Part shown: positions 24,801 through 61,140 of the stretch, piece by piece
Position numbering within the stretch: the stretch's first letter is position 1
Layout: every line of letters begins with the position of its first letter
NCBI GenBank assembly: GCA_963514005.1
Contig: OY740798.1
Coordinates: forward strand, 32,612,001-32,676,000
Direction of reading: 5' to 3'
Source of the DNA: Raja brachyura
Lineage: Eukaryota
DNA: 64,000 nucleotides
The notes under the pieces: generated by a model
The model's input: only the letters and a program-made list of their open reading frames with translations
The model's database searches: none
What the model was told of the DNA's origin: nothing
Translations under genes and position numbers: made by a program

Positions 24801-27800
24801 AGAGCAACACTCCAAACTGGCCCTAACACATACCAAATGTGACCAGCATTGTTCCTGTACACGCTGAATTACCTCGGATACAGGTTAAATTCAGCCTTCC
24901 TTTTATTCATTCTTTTCAATCCTGTGAATGATGTTGACCTGCTCATTCCTTTTAACGGCACCTCTGCAGAATACCCCAACGTCTGTGCACGTTTGCAGAC
25001 CTAAAATCTGCATACCCCCCCCCCCCCCCCCGATTTAAATTGATGCATTATTGGTAGTCCTTTTATTTATATTCAAGTTATTGAAGAAACTATTATAAAG
25101 CTTCAGGTATAACGTAAGGTTATAACAGGTCATTTTAAAATGCTGTTGACAGTTCTGCTATCCCCCACTCTTCGCTTCCTGTTGATGTAATCTCTGTGGA
25201 TCTTTGACAACTTTCAGATTATGTCATTCGGAACTTTATCACTTCTTCGCTTGCACGGTTCCCAAAACGTTGTCCCTTATTGAATCTTTTGAAAAATAGC
25301 AGAAGGAAAATTAAGGGAAATACAATTGTTGTGAGAGAAGTCTTAAAATGAGAGCTTGGCCATTCCAGATTCATGATGAGAAACATTGCTGCCCACACAA
25401 ATATAGTAGAAATCCAATGTTGATGGTGATTCTATCTCAAAACCTCCAAGAAACACAGTTCAAAGGTGGATAGAGTTCAGATGCAGAGCTGCCACACTGT
25501 GCTTGATCAAAGGAGTTATTGGTCTCCTCTTCATTGTTTTCAGAACATATTTAAATTAGTGAATAGATTTCATAGTAAAATATTAAGAACTCTTCACTAT
25601 GATAAATGGCGTACTTTTTTTCCAGTCTGAAGGGTACTGATCCAAAATGTCACCTGTCCATTCCCTCCGTAGATGCTGCCTGACCTGCCGAGTTTTGCTT
25701 AAGATTGCAGCATCTACAGTCTCTTGTGACTTAATTTTTCTCTGCTTTACATTTTCTGAACCTTGATCATTGACTCTCTGGCACACATTTTATCACACTT
25801 TACATCTCTCATCATACATGCACTCTGCATAATGCAATGTTCTCCCCCTTGTATTCTTGCCCATGAGCCATGCTTGTGATTCTGTGTTTTTGGTGTCTAT
25901 TTAAATGTGCATGCTGTGTCTCAAAGTGCCATTATTTAGTCACTCCCTATGGTGCTGTCTAATGCAGGAGAAGAACTGGCGTTCACGATTAGCCAATCTA
26001 CAGAAAGCAGATCTGTTGGGTCTAACCTCCTATTCCTCAGATTCCAGTCGTTCAACTGTCCCCAGCTACACCTGCCACAATGCCGTGCAGCCGCTCGACA
26101 ACAAAGGTATTGACAAACTTCTTATAGGAGTATGCTCATTTTCAACTTGCTGCTACTTCTAAACCTGTTGTATTGAACTTTAGTGTATGAAGGATCTCTC
26201 TCATTTCAAAGCATTTGCTATAAAGAGAAATCAATGCTGGGCAGAACTTGCTGTGTCAATGAGTAAAAACAGCCGCAGTATAAGTTAGTCATCAATATGG
26301 GAAGGTCCTATAAACTTTGGCTCATGACCAAAACAATTGAGAGTTTATTAATAGCCTTAATATACATGTACTTGGATCACTATCATCTGATACCTTTTGA
26401 GCAAGGGATGGAAGAGAGATGTATCCAAATCGGAGTGCTCAATCTCCTGTGGAATTCCCCTGGTGCTGGAGGCATTTTGTGCACCAAAAATTAGAGATTG
26501 TTAGCCTTAATATTCTTGGACTTGAATATGTATTAAATCCATAGCACTAGGTCACCTTTTGGCCAATTAAATTCTCTGCCTGGAGTTTGTGTAGCATTGT
26601 TCCACCTCTGAATCATCCATGCTGGATATTATTATATAGAAATAGCTGTAAAGAGGCAATGTTCCGTGATTAAAATGTTACGGTTGTGGTGTTAATAAAT
26701 ATTTACCAATCCCTGGTTGATTTATTCTGACTGGAATGACTCAGAATACAACCTGTACTGTACTTAGAGCAGATAAAGATATTTACAGAATCTTGTTTAC
26801 AGAAGCAATTGTTTTCATATTGTTTACAGAAGCAATAATTGGCCTTGACTCTTAATTAGAGGGACAGCATCCACTGACTCCAGCAGGTTGCAGACTCATC
26901 TGTGATCATCCCCATCATGGAACAGCTTGTTCCTACTCAAACATGAAGGATGACTATTTGATTATAGAAAACCTAAGTTGTTTTCTGCACCTGAGCACAT
27001 GTCTTTATCTTTAGGTGAAGACCATTGTCACTGAGTGTGTCTGTGGTCCCCATAACATCGCAATGAATGTGCTTCTGGGACAGAGAAAGGCTGTCATGGG
27101 GGGAGAGGGGTGCTGTAACTGGGTACCAATTTTCTTTGGATGGTTTGTAATATCACTAGATATTGCATTACTCTGGGTCTTCCTTGTTAACATGCAGGAT
27201 GCTATTTACCTCTGAGCCCGAGATCTATTGCATTGTGCTTGTTGTTTATGGTTGACATGGGATATCTTTGAGGGAAGCTTGCAGTTGGGTGCTGAGCGTG
27301 TGTGGATGTTGAATGCTGACCATTTCTGAACAACTAATCACAGTTTAGATCTGTCCTACAGAATCAGAGAAAGCTAAAGAAGAGGAGAAGGAATCAGATG
27401 ATTCTTCTTTCAGAAGGTCTGGTACAAGAGACCGGAGACGGCCGAGGGGGAAGCGAAGATCAACAGGAGTGCATTCCCTATCACAAGATGTAAGTACTCT
27501 GGATACTCAAGTGAATTTTAGACTGTCAATTACCCTGTTCAAAGACAGGGTTTCTCCAGCAAGCTACGGCCAACGAACTAATAATCACAAATCATTGCAG
27601 TCATTTACGCTGTAATCACTTTTATTTTATCATTGACGTGGTGGAGATATACATGGAGTACTGTGCAGTTCTGGTCATTAAGCTGGATAGCATGCAAAAG
27701 AGATTCAGCAGGATAGAGGATCCAAAAGTTAGTTGGCTTAATGTGAGAGATTTCAAAGGGACCTCAGGGGCAATTTTTTCACTCGGCAGGTAGTCCGTAT

Positions 27801-30800
27801 CTGAAAAGAACTGCCAGAGGAAGCTACAGAAGTAGATACAATTGGGTTTTAAATGATATATTTGGACAGATATGGATAGGAAGGGTTTAGAAGGCAATGA
27901 GCCAAATCCAAGCATTTATCAGAGTCAAGTATAGCAACTTGGTCATCATGGACAAAGTCAGCCAAAAGGCTTGTTTCTGTGCTTCTTCTTTCGTGTGGCG
28001 TGCACAGCCTAAAGTTGTTGGACAACTTGTTCTATTTGATCTTCCATTTGTGCACGGCGAGTTGATTGAATTAGTCGAAACAGGTTGGACCACGTGAAGG
28101 TTGCAATCTTCAACCCTGTTTCTGTGCTGTACAGCTCAATGACTCTTAATGATTTTATCTGAGGAGCTGGCTGTAATCTGAGAATATAGAAGTTGAATTA
28201 GCATCAGGAAGAAATAGTCTGCTAAATTGGGCTGGGGGGGGCAGGCAAGGGCAACAGTTAGATACTTTTGCTGCTTAATTCTGAAGAGCACTCAGTGGCA
28301 AGGAAAATAAAATGAATACACAGCATGTTTGAACTGAAAGTGAATATACAGAATACTCTGGTTATTGTTGCAGACAATGGCAAATACCTTTTGGTGCATC
28401 CACGTTTCTAGATGAACACTTAGGTTAAGAAACTGATCACGTTTGTACAGTAGTCACTAATGTGTTTTCCAATGGTTCATTGGTGCTTTATCACATGTAG
28501 CAATGTACAGTGAAATTCATATTTGTAAACTATTCAGTACAAGCATCGCTTTTCATAAGCACTTGGATACATCTTAGATAAGCACCTCAGAAGCAATACA
28601 AGTATACAGAGGCGCCAGATTTGGTACCATTTTCAAGTCCCAGTTGTTGTAAATGCAGGGTTCTTGACCAGACCACGAAGGCCTGTTGTCCAAGTGGCAT
28701 TGCACAGTTGGCGCGGTGTCCTTTGCCACGCCTCCACCACTGTAGGCCGTGTTCACCGTTGAGGCAGTGGACTCTCTCCTGCAGCTGATCTACTTACCAG
28801 CCCCCCAGTCAGACTCCTTCCTTTGATGTGCGGGCGGGCCAGGCCTTCCGGGTAGGTTTCCTGTTCAGTCCTCGGCGGGATAGCCAGGGCTGCTGGTGGG
28901 TCTGGCCACGGCTTGCAGGGATTATCCCACATCATTTTGATCTGTGGTATAAGCTAGGCTGCAAATATCTCGTTGTTCAAAATAGTTGAGGAACTTCGAA
29001 GTCTCAACACAGTTAGTGGATAAATTAAAGGCAAGGTGTGGCTAGTAAAGTGGCAGTAGAAATGTATCAAATATGGAAATTGACAATCTTGACGGATAGG
29101 AGAGCTTGACAACTTAAAATAAAAATGAAGCCATTGAATCATACGTTTAATTTTGTTTGTGAATATTCACTTTCGGTATCTAAAAATTAAAAATCAGACA
29201 AATTTAAAGGTTAAAAGTGGCATATTTCAATTTCAAAATTATGTTTACCAATTACAAATATCACTGGGATCAATTTTCTTGTAGCTCTGAGTCTTAAAAG
29301 CCCACTCTAAATTATAATTAGCACATCATTTTGAATGCACCAGTGAAAGACTGCTGCAGTTGGGGAAATGTCATTATTTTCCAGTTGAGATATTAAATAA
29401 AGGCTGTATGTTCATGTGGACAAAACATATCTATGATGTTACGTATGGTGTTTCATAGCCAGCATGCAAAAAAGATACTCAAAAGTCATAAGGAATGGGA
29501 ATAGAAATAGGTCATTCTGCCCATCAAGTCTACTCTGCCATTAAATCATGGCTGATCTATCTCTCCCTCCTAAACCCCATTCTCCTGCCTTCTCCCCATA
29601 ACCTCTGATACCTGTACTAATCAAGAATCTATCTATCTCTACCTTTAAAATATCCATTGACGGCCTCCACAGCCTCCTGTGGCAAAGAATTCCACAGAAT
29701 CACCACCCACTGACTAAGAAATTTATCCTCGTCTCTTTCCTAAAAGAACGTCCTTTAATTCTGAGGCTATGACCTCTAGTTCTAGACTCTCCCACTAATG
29801 GAAACATCCACTCTATCCAAGCCTTTCATTATTCTGTATATTTCAATCAGGTTTCCCCCCCCCTCATTTTTCTGAACTCCTGTGAGTACATGCCCAGTGT
29901 CAACTAACACTCATCATAGGTTAACCTACTCATTCCTGGGATCATTCTTGTAAACCTCCTCTGGACCCTCTCCAGAGCCAGCATATCCTTCTTCATATAT
30001 GGTGCCAAAAATTGCTCACAATATTCCAAATGCCACCTTACAGCGTCTTGTAGAGCCTCAACATTACATCCCTGTTTTTGTACATAAGCCCTCTTGAAAT
30101 AAATGGCAGGATTGCGTTTGCTTTCCTTCCTACCGATTCGACATGCAGATTAACTGTTTGGGAATCCTGCACCAGCACTCCCAAGTCCCTTTGCACCTCC
30201 AATTTCTGGATTATCTCCCCATTTAGAAAATAATCTCAGCCTTAATTCCTACCACCAAAATGCATGACTCCACACTTTGCTACACTATATTCCAACAGCC
30301 ACATAGCCTTCAATCCCCAAATCATTAATATACAATGTGAAGACTAGCAGCCCCAGCACCGACCCTTGCGGAACTCCACTAGTCACTGGTAGCCAACCAG
30401 AAAAAGCCCCCTTTATTGCCACTATTTGTCTCGAGTCTCAAATAAATTGAGTTAGAAACCAAGCAAAACTGGAAGAAAGAATGTGAAATGCACCATTGTA
30501 AATACTTGAGGAAAACAATGTAATCTGAAAGAACCTTAGCACCTGAAAGAGTAGGGAACATAAGAGAATGCTGACACAAGTTCTTCAGGATATGCCTATA
30601 CTATTCTGCAGAGATACTGCCTGACCCGTTGAGTAACTCATGTATTTTGTGTATTTTTATAAAAGAATGCTGACAGGATTAAATGAAGTAGTGGGGAATA
30701 AGGAAACTCCTGTGAAGCATTAATACATAAAATAGACACAAAGTGTTGGAGTAACTCAGCGGGTCAGGCATCATCTCTGGAGAAAAAGGATGGGTGACGT

Positions 30801-42800: not shown

Positions 42801-45800
42801 CCTGCAAACTCCAAAGCACAAGACCTCCAAGTCCTCGCAACCTGTAATAAATTCACTGCAATTTCTGCCCTCACATCTTTGATTACATCAACAGAACTCA
42901 GCCACCATGCTCCGTTATCTTATATAATATCAAATCCACTTTCTGCTATTTAACTCTGCAGTCAATTGACAGGATTCTCTGGCATCAGGCCTCCTTGTCC
43001 CATAATAAATTAACAGCATCTGCCCATGCCGTTAATCAATGTAATCTTATCTATCCTGCCCTGTAATAAATCAACAACACTGCCTGCCCTCGTGCCCAAT
43101 AATGATTCAAGAACAATCCTTGCCCTTGTGTTCCACAGTGAATTAAATGCACTAGCAGCCTGTATTAAAGCAACATCAGCCTCTGCCCTGATACCCTATA
43201 ATAAGTCAAGAGCACTTAGTACAACATGTAGGAAAGAACTGCAGATGCTGGTGTATTCTAAAGATAAACACAAATGCTGGAGTAACAGCGTTGTTCCAAC
43301 CTATTTGTCTTCTCCATAAATGCTGCCTGACCCACTGTTATTCCAGCATTTTGTGTTCATCTTCAGTACTTCATATAACTTGACACCATTCTCCACCGTC
43401 ATACCTTGTAATAACGATGGTACATTTCGCTCCACACTGTAATAAATGGATTTCACTCTCCGCCTCATTTTTGGTAATGTTAACAGCACACCCATCTTCA
43501 CACACTCATACCTTACAATCTACAACATTTTCTGCCTTCAGCACATTTTTCTGTCACACTCCAATTTGTAATAAGTCAACACTCCTTTGTCTTTAAATAT
43601 ACCCAGCAAATATTACACCAGCAGCAGCTTTCAACCTTCCCCAGTGTTAAAATTATACTATTGTTATCCCTCACACTCCCGACCCTGCATTAAATCAGGA
43701 TTTTACACCAGTCGTCACCAATCTGTAGTATATTACCTGCACACTGCTATGTCAACAGAACTATGCCTTCAAAGTTGCATTTCATATTAAACTAATTACA
43801 CTATTCTCAAACACACGTTCAATCGTAAATTGGCAACAATCAGTCTACACACATGCCCACTTTAAATGCAGATGGCTCTGCTCAAGTCTCAGTAATGCAA
43901 AATGACATAATACTCCATCCATCTTTGTCTCTTTTGGTTTGATAGATGCAAGAAAGATTTGCAGACAGGACTGCCCATCTGGAGATGGAGAAAAAAGTGA
44001 GTAGAGGATCGGCAAATTAAATGGAGAAGTACAGAACACTGGTATTTTTAAGAACACTGTTTTTTACAACACTGTAACAGTCAATAGATTGGTGATAAGA
44101 TAGGTTATATAGTCACCTCTGTTACTCAGTAAAGAAAATGTATTTAGAGACAGAGTTCATTTAAAAGATAGAAGGAAAGGCAAACTCCAGCAACCTCCCC
44201 ATGCAAACAGGGTAATTGTCCCCAGAAAAAAATATGCGGTTGCATATAAATTTTGTGCATGATTGCAATCTCCAATTATTTCCAGTAAGGTGGTCTCTAA
44301 CACCTAACTGAGAGCAGAATTGCACAACCATTTCAGATTTGACATTGTACATCACTTTTTAAGGATCTGCATAGATTGTTGGATATTTCTGGGAATGAAC
44401 ACCAAATGATTAATAGAGTTGGAAATAGGCACAACAATGGATAATATTGACAGTGGACTCAGGGAATAGTAGGAAATTTAGTGTATAAAACAGACTAACT
44501 GGTGATGTAAGAAAGCAGAATTCCTTCTAAATTTCTGACCCACATATCATGCTGCGAATCTTTGCAAGGATTCTTTTTGTATTAAAAGATGGTAATAGAA
44601 CATGTCATCCAAAACTGAATGGAGAAGTGTTTGCTTATAGTCACCAAGTTAGCACATTTGCCATTTTACCCAAAAATACCCATATTGTCAGGGGGCCTAT
44701 ACTTTAAAACAATGTTGTGGGAAAATAGTTAAAAGTTCTTGAAATATGATGGTGGCAATGATTGTGTTGATATTAAAGCTAAAGTGAAGGCATGGATAGA
44801 GTAGTTTGTAAGATATAAAGCAAGGAGCAGGTACATTTTTCTTACATTGTCAAAGGTATTTGCTTCAATCTTGTATTTCCCCATAATTATTGGAGATGGG
44901 GGCTACATTTGTTTTAATTTTGCTGTTTTCAACAATTAAGATGCTTGGCAAACTAAGGAAAACATATTGGATATGTAGATAGATCACAGTGCAGTTAAGT
45001 GCATAGAGAGTAAATGCACTAAATAATATTGTTCTGCTAGTGGATGTTTTTTAATACTTTTACAATCTGGCAACAGATTGATAGAGATCTACAGAAAATT
45101 ATTCCTCAGCAACTAAAAAAGACCACAAAAGGATTAATGCCTTTTATGTTTTAGGATACAAACATTAAAACAAATAATTAATGTTGAATTGGAAAATAAA
45201 TTGGTACACCAATTAAAATATGTACATGTTTGGGCATACTGTCAGAGGATGGAAGAATAGGAAAAATACTGAGCAGACACAGTAGACATCAACAATGTTA
45301 TCTCATAAAGAATGGAATGAGCTGCCGGAGGTAGTTGGGGCAGGTATCACAACATCTAAGAAACATTTAGACGGGTCTATGGATAGGAAAGGTTTAGAGG
45401 GATATGGGCCAAACGCAGGCAGGCATTGTAGATGGTGCATGTTGGTCAGCGTGGGCAAGTTGTGCCAAAGGCCTGTTACCATGCTGTAAGATTATTTTCA
45501 GCTATTAGAGAGTTTTAAATGAAAGTTTAGAGACAGTAAATTATGATTTTTTTTAAAACTAGTAGGCACATCAATAACAGGTTGTGTAAAAGGGATAATC
45601 AAAAGAAGAACAATGTGCGATGTTAAAAGGATGGAATATGTGTTTAACTGGATCCTAATATAGAAGGAAATTGGATGTGTTTTTTTTTAAATTAAAGTAA
45701 TGTACAATAGTATAAACCAAAAATAACATAATACATGTACCACTTCTTGTTTTAAACTTTAATAGGAAAGTAACAGAAGGAAGAAAAAGAGAAATAGAGA

Positions 45801-51769: not shown

Positions 51770-52940
51770 GGAACCATGCTGACCAAGATGCCCTATCCAA
51801 GATAGTCCCATTTGCCTGCATTTAGTCCATGTCCCTCTAAACCTTTCCTATCCATATACCTGTCCAAGTGTCTTTCAAATGTTGCTATTGTACCTGCCTC
51901 AACTACCTTCTCTGGCAGTTCATTCCATATACCCACTGTCTTCCGAGTGAAGATATTGCCCCTTGGGTTCCTATTAAATTATTCCCCTCTCACCTCAAAC
52001 ATAATGTTCTCTGGTTCCTGATTTCTCTAGCTTGGGTAAAAGACTGTGTTCACCCTATCTATTTCCGTCATGATTTTATACACTATTGCAAGTTCTTGCC
52101 ATTCATAATCATAGGAGTAGAATTAGGCCTTCGGCCCATCGAGTCGACTCCGCTATTCAATCATGGCTGATCTAACTTTCCCTCTTAACCCCATTCTCTC
52201 CATTTAATGGCCATTAATTTTCATCATGGGCACCAATTATACAATATGCTTTAACAATTGGGTTATCATCACATATAACATAGAACACTACAGTGCGGGA
52301 GCACTGACCATAATGGCAGTCACATCTCATCTGCCTCACATGGTTTGTCTAAATATCTCTTGAACATTGCTATCATATCTGATTCCAGTACTTCCTCTAG
52401 AAAACATGTTTGAGGCATTTATCACAATGCAACTAAAACAAATTGCCCAGCAATTCTCCTTTAAATTCCCCTCTTACCTTAAACGTGTGCCTTCTATTAT
52501 TTGACATTTCTACTCTGGGCTATAGACTCTGATTCCCTCCCTATTTATGCCTCTTAATTTTAGATATAGCTTTCAAGTCAGCCTTCACCCTCCTGCTCTC
52601 CAGATATAACAATACAGGTTTCAAGAGTAAAATTTTTTAAAATTGTCATATGTACCAAAAACAGAACAATGAAATTCTTCCTTGCAACAGCATAACATTG
52701 TATAACATACATATGTAGATAACACTGTACTCATTGATAAGAGTATTCGTTATAAAGGTTTGAACTTATACCAAGTACTCACCAATCCTGATAACATACT
52801 GGTGAATCTCTTACACACTCCAAAGCCTTGACATGCTTTCTGTAATATAGCAACCAAAAATGCACACAATACTCCAAATGCGGCCTAACTAAAGTTTCAT
52901 ACAGATGTAACATAACTTGCCAACTTTTATACTCAGTCTA
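51770..52940 (-). mobile_element. Cluster of degraded CR1 3' fragments
   Basis: CCCTCTAAACCTTTCCTATCCAT; TGCACACAATACTCCAAATGCGGCCT. Confidence 0.65.
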
Positions 52941-60394: not shown

Positions 60395-61140
60395 CAAGAC
60401 ACTCACCTAAACAAGTCCTGTTTGCTCATGTTTGGCTCATATTCCTCAAACTTTTTCAATACCTGTACCTGTCCAAATGCATTTAAAAATGTTGCAACTG
60501 TAACTGCCTCTATAATTTCCTCTGGTAGCTTGTTCCATGTACACACCACTCTCCGATTGAAAAAACCTGCCCTTTAAATCCCCTCTCACCTTAAACATAT
60601 GCGCTCTAGTTTTAGACTCCCTACCCTGGGATAAAGACCAAATGCTGACCTTATCTATGCCCCTCCATTTCTATTAATTTCCATGAGTTCACAGTTGCAG
60701 ACTTTCTTGATAACTCAGTCCAGGCAACATTCTTGTGAATCCTTTCTACACCCTCTCCACATCAATCACATGCTTCCAGTTGGCAACCAGAATTGTACAT
60801 AACACTCAAAATTTGGTCTCATCAATGCCTTATACAGTTGTTACAACTCTTGATATACTGACCGATGAAAACATGCATGCCATATGCCTTGAATATAGTC
60901 ACAAATTGCTGGAGTAACTCAGCACGTCAGGCAGCATCCTTGGAGAAATGGAATAGGTGACCAATGCCATATGTCTTCCTCACCGCCCTGTCCACCCATG
61001 TCGCCACTTTAAGGGAACTATGAACTTGTACCTGTACCTTTGTTCATTCACTGTGGACATCGTGCCCTGGTTTAAAGCCCCAAAATGCATCACTTTGCAC
61101 TCATCCAAGTTAAATTCCATCTGCCATCCCTTTGTCAATT
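60395..61140 (-). mobile_element. Degraded CR1 fragments
   Basis: WQMEFNLDECKVMHFG on the minus strand; CR1 3' UTR motifs. Confidence 0.7.

What the first reader, a model, noticed from the sequence alone, without database searches (positions are those of the whole stretch)
27972..28128. Ribozyme-headed mini-retroposon: a 133-bp SINE-like element that starts at a minimal HDV/CPEB3-like ribozyme cleavage site
Seen: an insertion in a CR1 tail flanked by a 12-bp duplication (TGTTTCTGTGCT). On the minus strand it begins GGGUUGA|A|GAUUGCA|ACC|UUCACGU|GGU|CCAACCU|GU|UUCGA|CUAA|UUCAAUC and ends in a (GAA)n tail. Known: this is the HDV-family order. P1 has a G1-U wobble and 6 of 7 pairs, P3 is ACC/GGU, the L3 UUCACGU followed by GU after P1 matches the CPEB3 ribozyme as I recall it, the catalytic C sits in J4/2 (CUAA), P2 is GAUUGCA/U(G>U)CAAUC, and P4 is reduced to a few nucleotides as in minimal HDV-like ribozymes. 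HDV-like ribozymes process the 5' ends of R2, RTE and L1Tc elements and of their short derivatives (Drosophila SIDEs, trypanosome NARTc/SIDER). Inference: the 5' boundary equals the predicted G1 (1-2 nt ambiguity from CC microhomology) and there is no tRNA/Pol III head. The element may therefore cut itself out of read-through transcripts and be copied by a LINE, possibly RTE. I do not know of such a family described in cartilaginous fish, but could not search.
Basis: partly seen in the sequence, partly recalled or inferred. Interest (0 to 1): 0.92.

Follow-up and report, generated by a model that had tools for sequence, protein, structure and literature searches.

The report
Ribozyme-headed mini-parasite of a Vingi retrotransposon
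This is one copy of a very abundant 130-base jumping element made of just the two ends of a longer retrotransposon; it starts with what looks like a tiny self-cutting RNA enzyme, and its two ends appear to pair with each other, which may explain how such minimal parasites get copied.

Summary
The insert is a decayed copy of a family with at least 7,985 copies in this genome; 1,320 carry one identical, fully paired 54-nt HDV-like fold. I found the parent: a 3.1-kb single-ORF APE-RT LINE of Vingi-like architecture that shares the first ~79 and last ~28 nt, so the element is a bipartite internal-deletion derivative like R2 SIDEs and NARTc/RIME. Six Vingi-like families keep the fold with different stems: 90 of 90 pair cells, 11 of 15 columns changed on both sides; Rfam CPEB3/HDV models hit them below cut-off. 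New in my searches: ribozymes in Vingi-like elements, a P4-less one in an animal repeat, and complementarity between the segment behind the ribozyme and the 3' UTR in five to six of seven families (a blind seventh failed). Cleavage is untested; Repbase, Dfam, patents and three key papers were not seen.

The parts
28117..28128 (.). Target-site duplication, copy 5' of the element (its base 28117 sits where family copies have G1)
28064..28117 (-). 54-nt minimal HDV-like ribozyme fold (decayed in this copy): P1 28117-28111 with 28088-28082; J1/2 28110-28109; P2 28108-28102 with 28070-28064; P3 28101-28099 with 28091-28089; L3 28098-28092; GU 28081-28080; 5-nt remnant in place of P4 28079-28075; J4/2 28074-28071
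28074..28074 (-). Predicted catalytic cytosine (first base of J4/2; C57 of CPEB3, C75 of HDV)
   Evidence: function inferred
28039..28063 (-). Rest of the LINE-derived 5' UTR (shared with the parent up to the deletion point)
28049..28056 (-). 5' arm of the end-to-end helix (8 bp with 27999-28006)
   Evidence: pair probabilities 0.82-0.99 in copy L002
28019..28038 (-). Junction insert found only in the mini element: short duplication of the 5' UTR end plus an inverted copy of the 3' start, forming a hairpin
   Evidence: (table 5c)
27992..28018 (-). LINE-derived 3' end: last codons, the parent's stop codon (28011-28009) and 3' UTR
27999..28006 (-). 3' arm of the end-to-end helix
27984..27991 (-). 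(AAG)n microsatellite tail
27972..27983 (.). Target-site duplication, copy 3' of the element
27640..28146 (+). Host repeat interrupted by the insertion; CR1-type 3' end by recall; other copies at 51813-51979, 45378-45421, 60466-60594; ends approximate
   Evidence: clade label from my knowledge

Best explanation
The element is a non-autonomous, internally deleted derivative of a Vingi-like LINE. Shown: it consists of the parent's first ~79 nt and last ~28 nt plus tail, joined by a ~20-nt insert; it spread by retrotransposition (thousands of dispersed copies, target-site duplications, (AAG)n tail); its 5' end is G1 of a nested double pseudoknot that six related LINE families keep through compensatory change. 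Inferred: a copy is transcribed as part of a host RNA; the ribozyme cuts 5' of G1 and frees an RNA with the exact 5' end; the segment behind the ribozyme pairs with the 3' UTR, holding both ends together; Vingi protein supplied in trans binds the 3' end, nicks the target, primes on the (AAG)n tail and copies the RNA to G1. The window copy is a damaged passenger and probably cuts poorly or not at all.
For: Parent: L231 matches element nt 9-71 at 95% and nt 100-137 three kb further on; 30 of 30 parent loci end in the element's tail; 23 of 30 loci fetched with the parent's 5' end carry the J4/2-P2 anchor; the element's TAG is the parent's stop codon. The same 5'-to-3' joint with the same insert is in contigs of three other organisms. 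5' ends: G at G1 in 67 of 76 copies; duplication called in 64 of 76, ending within -2..+3 of G1 in 58 of 64; 21 of 26 copies fetched by the tail alone reach the P1 strand. Fold: 90 of 90 cognate pair cells against 306 of 450 for swapped strands, 11 of 15 columns with two-sided change, G1.U, L3 C and G, and the J4/2 C kept in all six families. Subfamily-level variants in the 54 nt fall on J1/2, a U.G to U-A pair and the free second base of J4/2. Independent models: RF02682 on L002 (E 0.31, only hit) and L307 (E 0.007), RF00622 CPEB3 on L325 (E 0.0008), L294 (E 0.008), L347 (E 0.09), RF00094 on L272 (E 8.5). End pairing: cognate duplex beats shuffles in 9 of 9 pairs with 30/35-nt windows (0-23 of 500); the 3'-terminal window is best or among the best 4 of about 600 windows in 5 of 6 single-locus elements.
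Against: No cleavage or raw-read data: only contigs were served. All Rfam scores are below the curated cut-offs. In the mosquito ribozyme Agam-2-1 a 0-1-nt J1/2 left little or no activity (PMC4908430, passages); here it is 2 nt (0-2 nt across families). The P4 remnant could form a 2-bp UUCG hairpin that takes up the G of P1.1 and the catalytic C (sequence inspection). Plain folding gives no z-score signal (pseudoknots are not modelled). A 5' end at G1 also follows from an internal promoter. Only 7 of 29 metagenome loci with at least 150 nt upstream showed the ribozyme (one more by eye); the others were not checked one by one for truncation. End pairing: windows were fixed after I had seen the complementarity; it weakens with 45/45 windows (0-52 of 500), fails in single copy L125 (122 of 591 windows as good) and failed in the one blind family (390 and 232 of 500). 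No intact parent ORF was seen (longest open frame 456 aa among 139 copies) although the commonest mini form is young, so the protein source of the last burst is unknown. The clade name rests on architecture and recall; no labelled reference was found.
Confidence: 0.8

Rival explanations
1. The 5' end is set by an internal promoter (as Pr77 of L1Tc); the pseudoknot is kept mainly as a protein-binding, protective or translation element, and the P4-less form of this family cleaves slowly or not at all.
For: L1Tc's first 77 nt are both promoter and ribozyme (PMC3383444, abstract start in listing; PMC8256844 passages). A protective role of the fold is stated for R2 templates (PMC13708176 passages). 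Short J1/2. G is among the extra bases seen between duplication and G1.
Against: The catalytic C, G1.U wobble and L3 U.G positions are kept in six families whose stems share little sequence; the commonest extra or adjacent base at -1 is T (41 of 76), not the G expected from a cap; no A/B box.
Confidence: 0.15
2. The 5'-3' complementarity is incidental (composition, or a relic of how the ends arose) and has no role; bipartite derivatives arise simply because a ribozyme plus a 3' recognition site suffice.
For: Blind family G fails; copy L125 fails; family B's 5' segment pairs as well with family E's 3' end. R2/R1 hybrid SIDEs move with unrelated ends (PMC3414825 passages).
Against: Five families show 8-13-bp helices at the same place with unrelated sequences, better than shuffles and than ~600 internal windows.
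Confidence: 0.4
3. The youngest burst was driven by another LINE (the second Vingi-like family or an unsampled one), not by the family from which the element derives.
For: Mini subfamily A is about 1% from its consensus in selected copies and has 1,320 identical heads, whereas parent copies are 87-92% alike with no intact ORF; the two LINE families end in a similar motif before the (AAG)n tail.
Against: The second family shows no intact ORF around its C-terminus either (longest listed frame 421 aa); one lost or unassembled master would explain the pattern.
Confidence: 0.25
4. RTE-dependent or tRNA-derived SINE, as first guessed for the partner.
For: RTE elements have ribozymes, (microsatellite) tails and bipartite derivatives (PMC5786205 passages).
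Against: The LINE sharing both ends and its relatives lack the N- and C-terminal motifs I recall for RTE and score best on PF14529; no tRNA gene.
Confidence: 0.04

Closest known systems
R2 SIDEs of Drosophila (Eickbush and Eickbush 2012, PMC3414825; passages read)
   Same: 5' HDV-like ribozyme joined to a LINE 3' end, with a middle of unclear origin; moved in trans; proposed release from co-transcripts.
   Different: SIDEs are site-specific in rDNA, 529 bp for R2Dwi_SIDE, with a full-size ribozyme shown to cleave; this element is ~130 bp, dispersed, in thousands of copies, APE-LINE dependent, P4-less, untested.
NARTc, RIME and SIDER of trypanosomatids (L1Tc/ingi clade; PMC4035085 passages)
   Same: Short derivatives of an Ingi-group LINE headed by an HDV-like ribozyme; Ingi is the sister clade of Vingi.
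   Different: Parents have RNase H (one search says Vingi lacks it; none detected here); 77-nt hallmark; protist hosts.
Vingi internal-deletion derivatives (Vingi-1_EE; SINE2-1_ACar), as summarised in PMC5786205
   Same: Bipartite non-autonomous elements of the same (inferred) clade.
   Different: [quoted passage not shown]
Minimal (P4-less) HDV-like and theta ribozymes (bioRxiv 10.1101/2023.06.13.544163, passages)
   Same: P4 absent, short J1/2, catalytic C first in J4/2.
   Different: Reported almost only from phages, beside tRNAs; none reported from the human, mouse and protist genomes searched there. Here it heads an animal retroelement, and sister families have P4 regions of 18-40 nt.
Mammalian CPEB3 ribozyme (RF00622; PMC4836649 passages)
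   Same: Same 7-nt L3, GU after P1 (one G-C plus U.U in P1.1), G1.U wobble, 4-nt J4/2 (identical in the older mini subfamily); the Rfam model hits a sister family at E 0.0008.
   Different: Single intronic locus with a full P4; different stems; homology against convergence is not decided.

Membership tests
HDV-like ribozyme | Nested double pseudoknot P1, P2, P3 in HDV order | tested here: met
   90 of 90 pair cells in six families, 11 of 15 columns two-sided; the window copy has mismatches in P1 and P2.
HDV-like ribozyme | G1.U (or G-C) at the cleavage site, L3 U.G and C for P1.1, C first in J4/2 | tested here: met
   G1 in 67 of 76 copies, J4/2 C in 67 of 76 (losses are CpG-type changes in the older subfamily).
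HDV-like ribozyme | Reaches a curated Rfam cut-off | tested here: not met
   16-33.7 bits against cut-offs of 35-50; none for the window copy.
HDV-like ribozyme | Mg-dependent self-cleavage 5' of G1, lost with C-to-U | not testable with these tools
   Bench assay; no raw RNA reads were served.
Bipartite non-autonomous LINE (SIDE type) | 5' and 3' ends of one autonomous LINE, no ORF | tested here: met
Bipartite non-autonomous LINE (SIDE type) | Own amplification with target-site duplications and tail | tested here: met
Vingi clade (parent) | Compact single ORF with APE and RT, no RNase H | tested here: met
   Definition (parent copies are broken; intact relatives are ~1000-aa single ORFs).
Vingi clade (parent) | RT phylogeny groups it with named Vingi elements | not tested
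   No labelled Vingi, Ingi or RTE sequence was returned; no tree was built.
SINE (Pol III, small-RNA head) | tRNA, 5S or 7SL head with internal A and B boxes | tested here: not met
Theta ribozyme | Phage location, mostly beside a tRNA 3' end | tested here: not met
   Dispersed repeat of a 2.7-Gb genome; no tRNA.

The most novel reading that the evidence does not exclude
Vingi-like LINEs carry a two-part cis unit: a 5' HDV-like ribozyme that makes the end, and a helix between the segment behind it and the 3' UTR that closes the RNA into a panhandle needed for efficient full-length copying. This would explain why this clade spawns bipartite derivatives and why a 130-nt element outnumbers its parent many times over. 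Bolder add-on (about 0.15 on its own): the mammalian CPEB3 ribozyme is a domesticated head of such an element; Vingi traces exist in the human genome (PMC5753468 passages) and the CPEB3 model hits a sister family.
Probability: 0.45. Interest if true: 0.82.

Novelty: new variant of a known kind. Interest (0 to 1): 0.64.

Why it matters
It adds Vingi-like LINEs to the ribozyme-headed clades and puts a P4-less HDV-like fold, so far tied to phages in the paper I read, at the head of a dispersed animal repeat with over a thousand identical copies: if active, sense-strand intronic copies would cut host pre-mRNAs, a genome-wide test of what intronic ribozymes do. The end-to-end pairing offers a testable answer to a stated open question (why only RTE, Ingi, Vingi and R2 make bipartite derivatives). 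Vingi-1 UTRs are already used to flank RNA templates in gene-writing platforms, so a ribozyme and a UTR-UTR helix in this clade bear on template design. It also gives a concrete candidate source for the CPEB3 ribozyme.

Tried and rejected
Rfam on the window copy: snoRNA-type chance hits only. Single-strand folding: z-scores 0.3-1.0, uninformative for a pseudoknot. PF14529 search of the genome: the 30 best loci were a two-ORF element unrelated to the mini element, and 19 of 20 further loci were other LINEs; one (L125) led to the Vingi-like families. The first Vingi-like family found (L125) is not the parent: different head and 3' UTR. Catalytic-base swap control of my descriptor was uninformative, because an A before the C is read as a 5-nt J4/2 (55 hits with A, 52 with C). 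mis-assigned P2 of family G (89 of 90); corrected by hand and matched by the Rfam alignment; the family A row in both comes from L125. MAFFT alignment of ribozymes was out of register in P2, so no pair count was run on it. Viral contigs held no relative. Protein names gave no clade label. Run X19 (RNA on record) gave two small contigs; no evidence of transcription or ends. Runs under 5 shared words were not used except the four laid. Chimeras of the tail with another repeat showed no convincing duplication. Literature: searches listed no paper that describes a Vingi ribozyme, this family, or UTR-UTR pairing in a LINE; most were judged from listings only. Ruminski 2011, Kojima 2011 and Webb 2009 were not held; Riccitelli 2014, Repbase, Dfam, the cited patents and all supplements were not seen and may already describe some of this. 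Earlier scan findings: none.

Full report
Observation. My descriptor of the HDV topology finds it as the only site scoring 7 or more in the window, and 0 of 5000 shuffles pass; the descriptor was written with the element in view, so this shows specificity, not independent discovery. Rfam gives the window copy no ribozyme hit.

A family, and where it starts. The window lies in a 2.70-Gb assembly. A 30-letter pattern across the element-specific junction has 7,985 exact matches, with 0 for the reversed control; this is a lower bound. One 54-nt head occurs 1,320 times without a change. These copies were chosen by similarity; of the 26 fetched by the tail alone, 21 reach the first P1 strand. With four G, P1 has seven pairs opened by G.U, and P2 seven Watson-Crick pairs; 43 of 76 copies pass the strict descriptor. 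There are at least two subfamilies: A (44 copies, median 1.2% from consensus, biased to best hits) and B (26 copies, 6.2%). The window copy belongs to A and has lost G1 and pairs in P1 and P2.

The parent. A Pfam search for the APE domain led to L125, a broken 3.1-kb single-ORF element with endonuclease, RT and a C-terminal cysteine motif, headed by a full HDV-like fold with a 40-nt P4 region; its 3' UTR differs from the mini element. A pattern joining the mini tail to an upstream CxxCG motif gave 29 matches, 5 of them a second LINE family whose stop codon is the TAG in the mini tail. All 30 loci of that family end in the tail, and L231 carries the mini head 3 kb upstream, followed by an ATG and an endonuclease frame; further 5' ends confirm it. 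The element is therefore the parent's first ~79 nt and last ~28 nt, joined by about 20 nt that are found nowhere else in seven parent loci except as a short duplication and an inverted copy of the 3' start. Contigs of runs X7, X11 and X14, three other organisms by their codes, show the same joint and insert, and heterogeneous flanks before the G run. Among 139 parent copies spanning one RT segment the longest open frame is 456 aa, so no active master was seen. Relatives are ~1000-aa single ORFs with PF14529, PF03372 and RVT_1 and no RNase H hit; this fits the description of Vingi in PMC13708176 (passages). The name also rests on recalled motifs; no labelled reference or tree backs it.

The ribozyme. 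Eighty metagenome loci related to these proteins were fetched. Of 33 with an N-terminal match, 29 had at least 150 nt upstream; 7 show the fold 130-220 nt before the match on the same strand, one more by eye (L335), and L347 has one on the other strand; the strict descriptor gave one low-scoring stray hit in 283 kb, both strands. Taking one head from each of six families (A, B, C, D, E, G; family G's P2 set by hand), all 90 pair cells of P1, P2 and P3 are paired, against 306 of 450 when strands are swapped between families; 11 of 15 columns change on both sides, and the P4 region runs from 5 nt (this family) to 40 nt. Rfam models, which I did not tune, agree below their cut-offs: RF02682 is the only hit on copy L002 and starts at G1 (E 0.31); RF00622 (CPEB3) hits L325 at E 0.0008, L294 and L347, and RF02682 hits L307 at E 0.007; L362, L305 and L335 gave no ribozyme hit, nor did L311 and L312. 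Within the mini family the subfamily-level variants of the head fall on J1/2, one wobble-to-Watson-Crick pair and the second base of J4/2. Against activity: PMC4908430 (passages) found little cleavage with a 0-1-nt J1/2 in another ribozyme, and the P4 remnant could mispair with the catalytic C.

End pairing. In copy L002 positions 62-69 pair with 112-119 at probabilities 0.82-0.99. In the parent these arms are 3 kb apart. I then saw complementarity at the same place in other families with unrelated sequence. With 30 nt behind P2 against the last 35 nt before the tail, the cognate duplex beats shuffles in 9 of 9 pairs from six families (0-23 of 500) and is the best of its row in 8 of 9; with 45/45 windows the range is 0-52 of 500 (a first run on single decayed copies gave 0-283 of 500). 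The 3'-terminal window is best or among the best 4 of about 600 in 5 of 6 single-locus elements; L125 fails. A seventh family, tested blind with 5' and 3' ends from different loci, fails (390 and 232 of 500). I count five families as supported, one as weak, one as negative.

Mechanism. Shown: structure, origin, amplification, 5' boundary, conserved fold. Inferred from R2 SIDEs and L1Tc (PMC3414825, PMC4035085, PMC6765202; passages): release from host read-through RNA by cleavage at G1, then target-primed reverse transcription by Vingi protein in trans. Inferred from my data alone: the end helix brings the 5' end to the priming complex or forms part of the protein's binding site. For a 130-nt RNA full-length copying is expected anyway, so clustering at G1 fixes the RNA's end but not how it is made; an internal promoter remains the main rival.

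Comparison and novelty. Ribozyme-headed internally deleted elements are known, and Vingi derivatives are known. PMC5786205 (passages) lists six ribozyme-bearing clades without Vingi and leaves open why few clades make bipartite elements. The theta-ribozyme preprint (passages) finds P4-less forms almost only in phages. Ten searches listed nothing on a Vingi ribozyme, this family or UTR-UTR pairing in a LINE, but Ruminski 2011, Kojima 2011, Webb 2009, Riccitelli 2014, Repbase, Dfam, patents and supplements were not seen; animal 'Ingi' elements in the first may include Vingi-like ones.

Noticed in passing
L012/L031 ~1600-1660, L032, L033, L035, L068: Another abundant repeat (2494 first-look candidates; DIRS-like by my recall, with a long frame downstream) carries the mini element's 3' tail at or near its end in 5 loci, joined at a short shared motif; no convincing target-site duplication. 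Possibly template switching or truncated insertions at that end.
   Followed up: partly
L125:532-3680 (G000:C29): A second, more abundant Vingi-like family (5314 candidates) with a full-size HDV-like head; six matches cover only its first ~115 nt and may be its own short derivatives.
   Followed up: partly
5' junctions of 76 copies: The base before G1 is T in 41 of 76 copies; target preference or a non-templated A on the cDNA; unexplained.
   Followed up: no
window 27414-27489 (+): Probable exon (AG before, GTAAGT after); the element would then lie antisense in an intron. Not verified.
   Followed up: no
L230:1421-1557: A young mini copy inserted, with a duplication, into a full-length copy of its own parent family.
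   Followed up: yes
L091-L120: A two-ORF LINE of the I/Nimb type (label recalled) with long open frames, up to 796 aa among these loci.
   Followed up: no
L347 (minus strand, 1487-1568): A family C ribozyme head facing away from the RT match of the locus; perhaps a separate short or inverted copy.
   Followed up: no
L231:3931-4330: The last ~300-400 nt of the parent have far higher contig depth in runs X7 and X11 than the body, with an opposite-strand joint to the head; may mark another derivative family.
   Followed up: no
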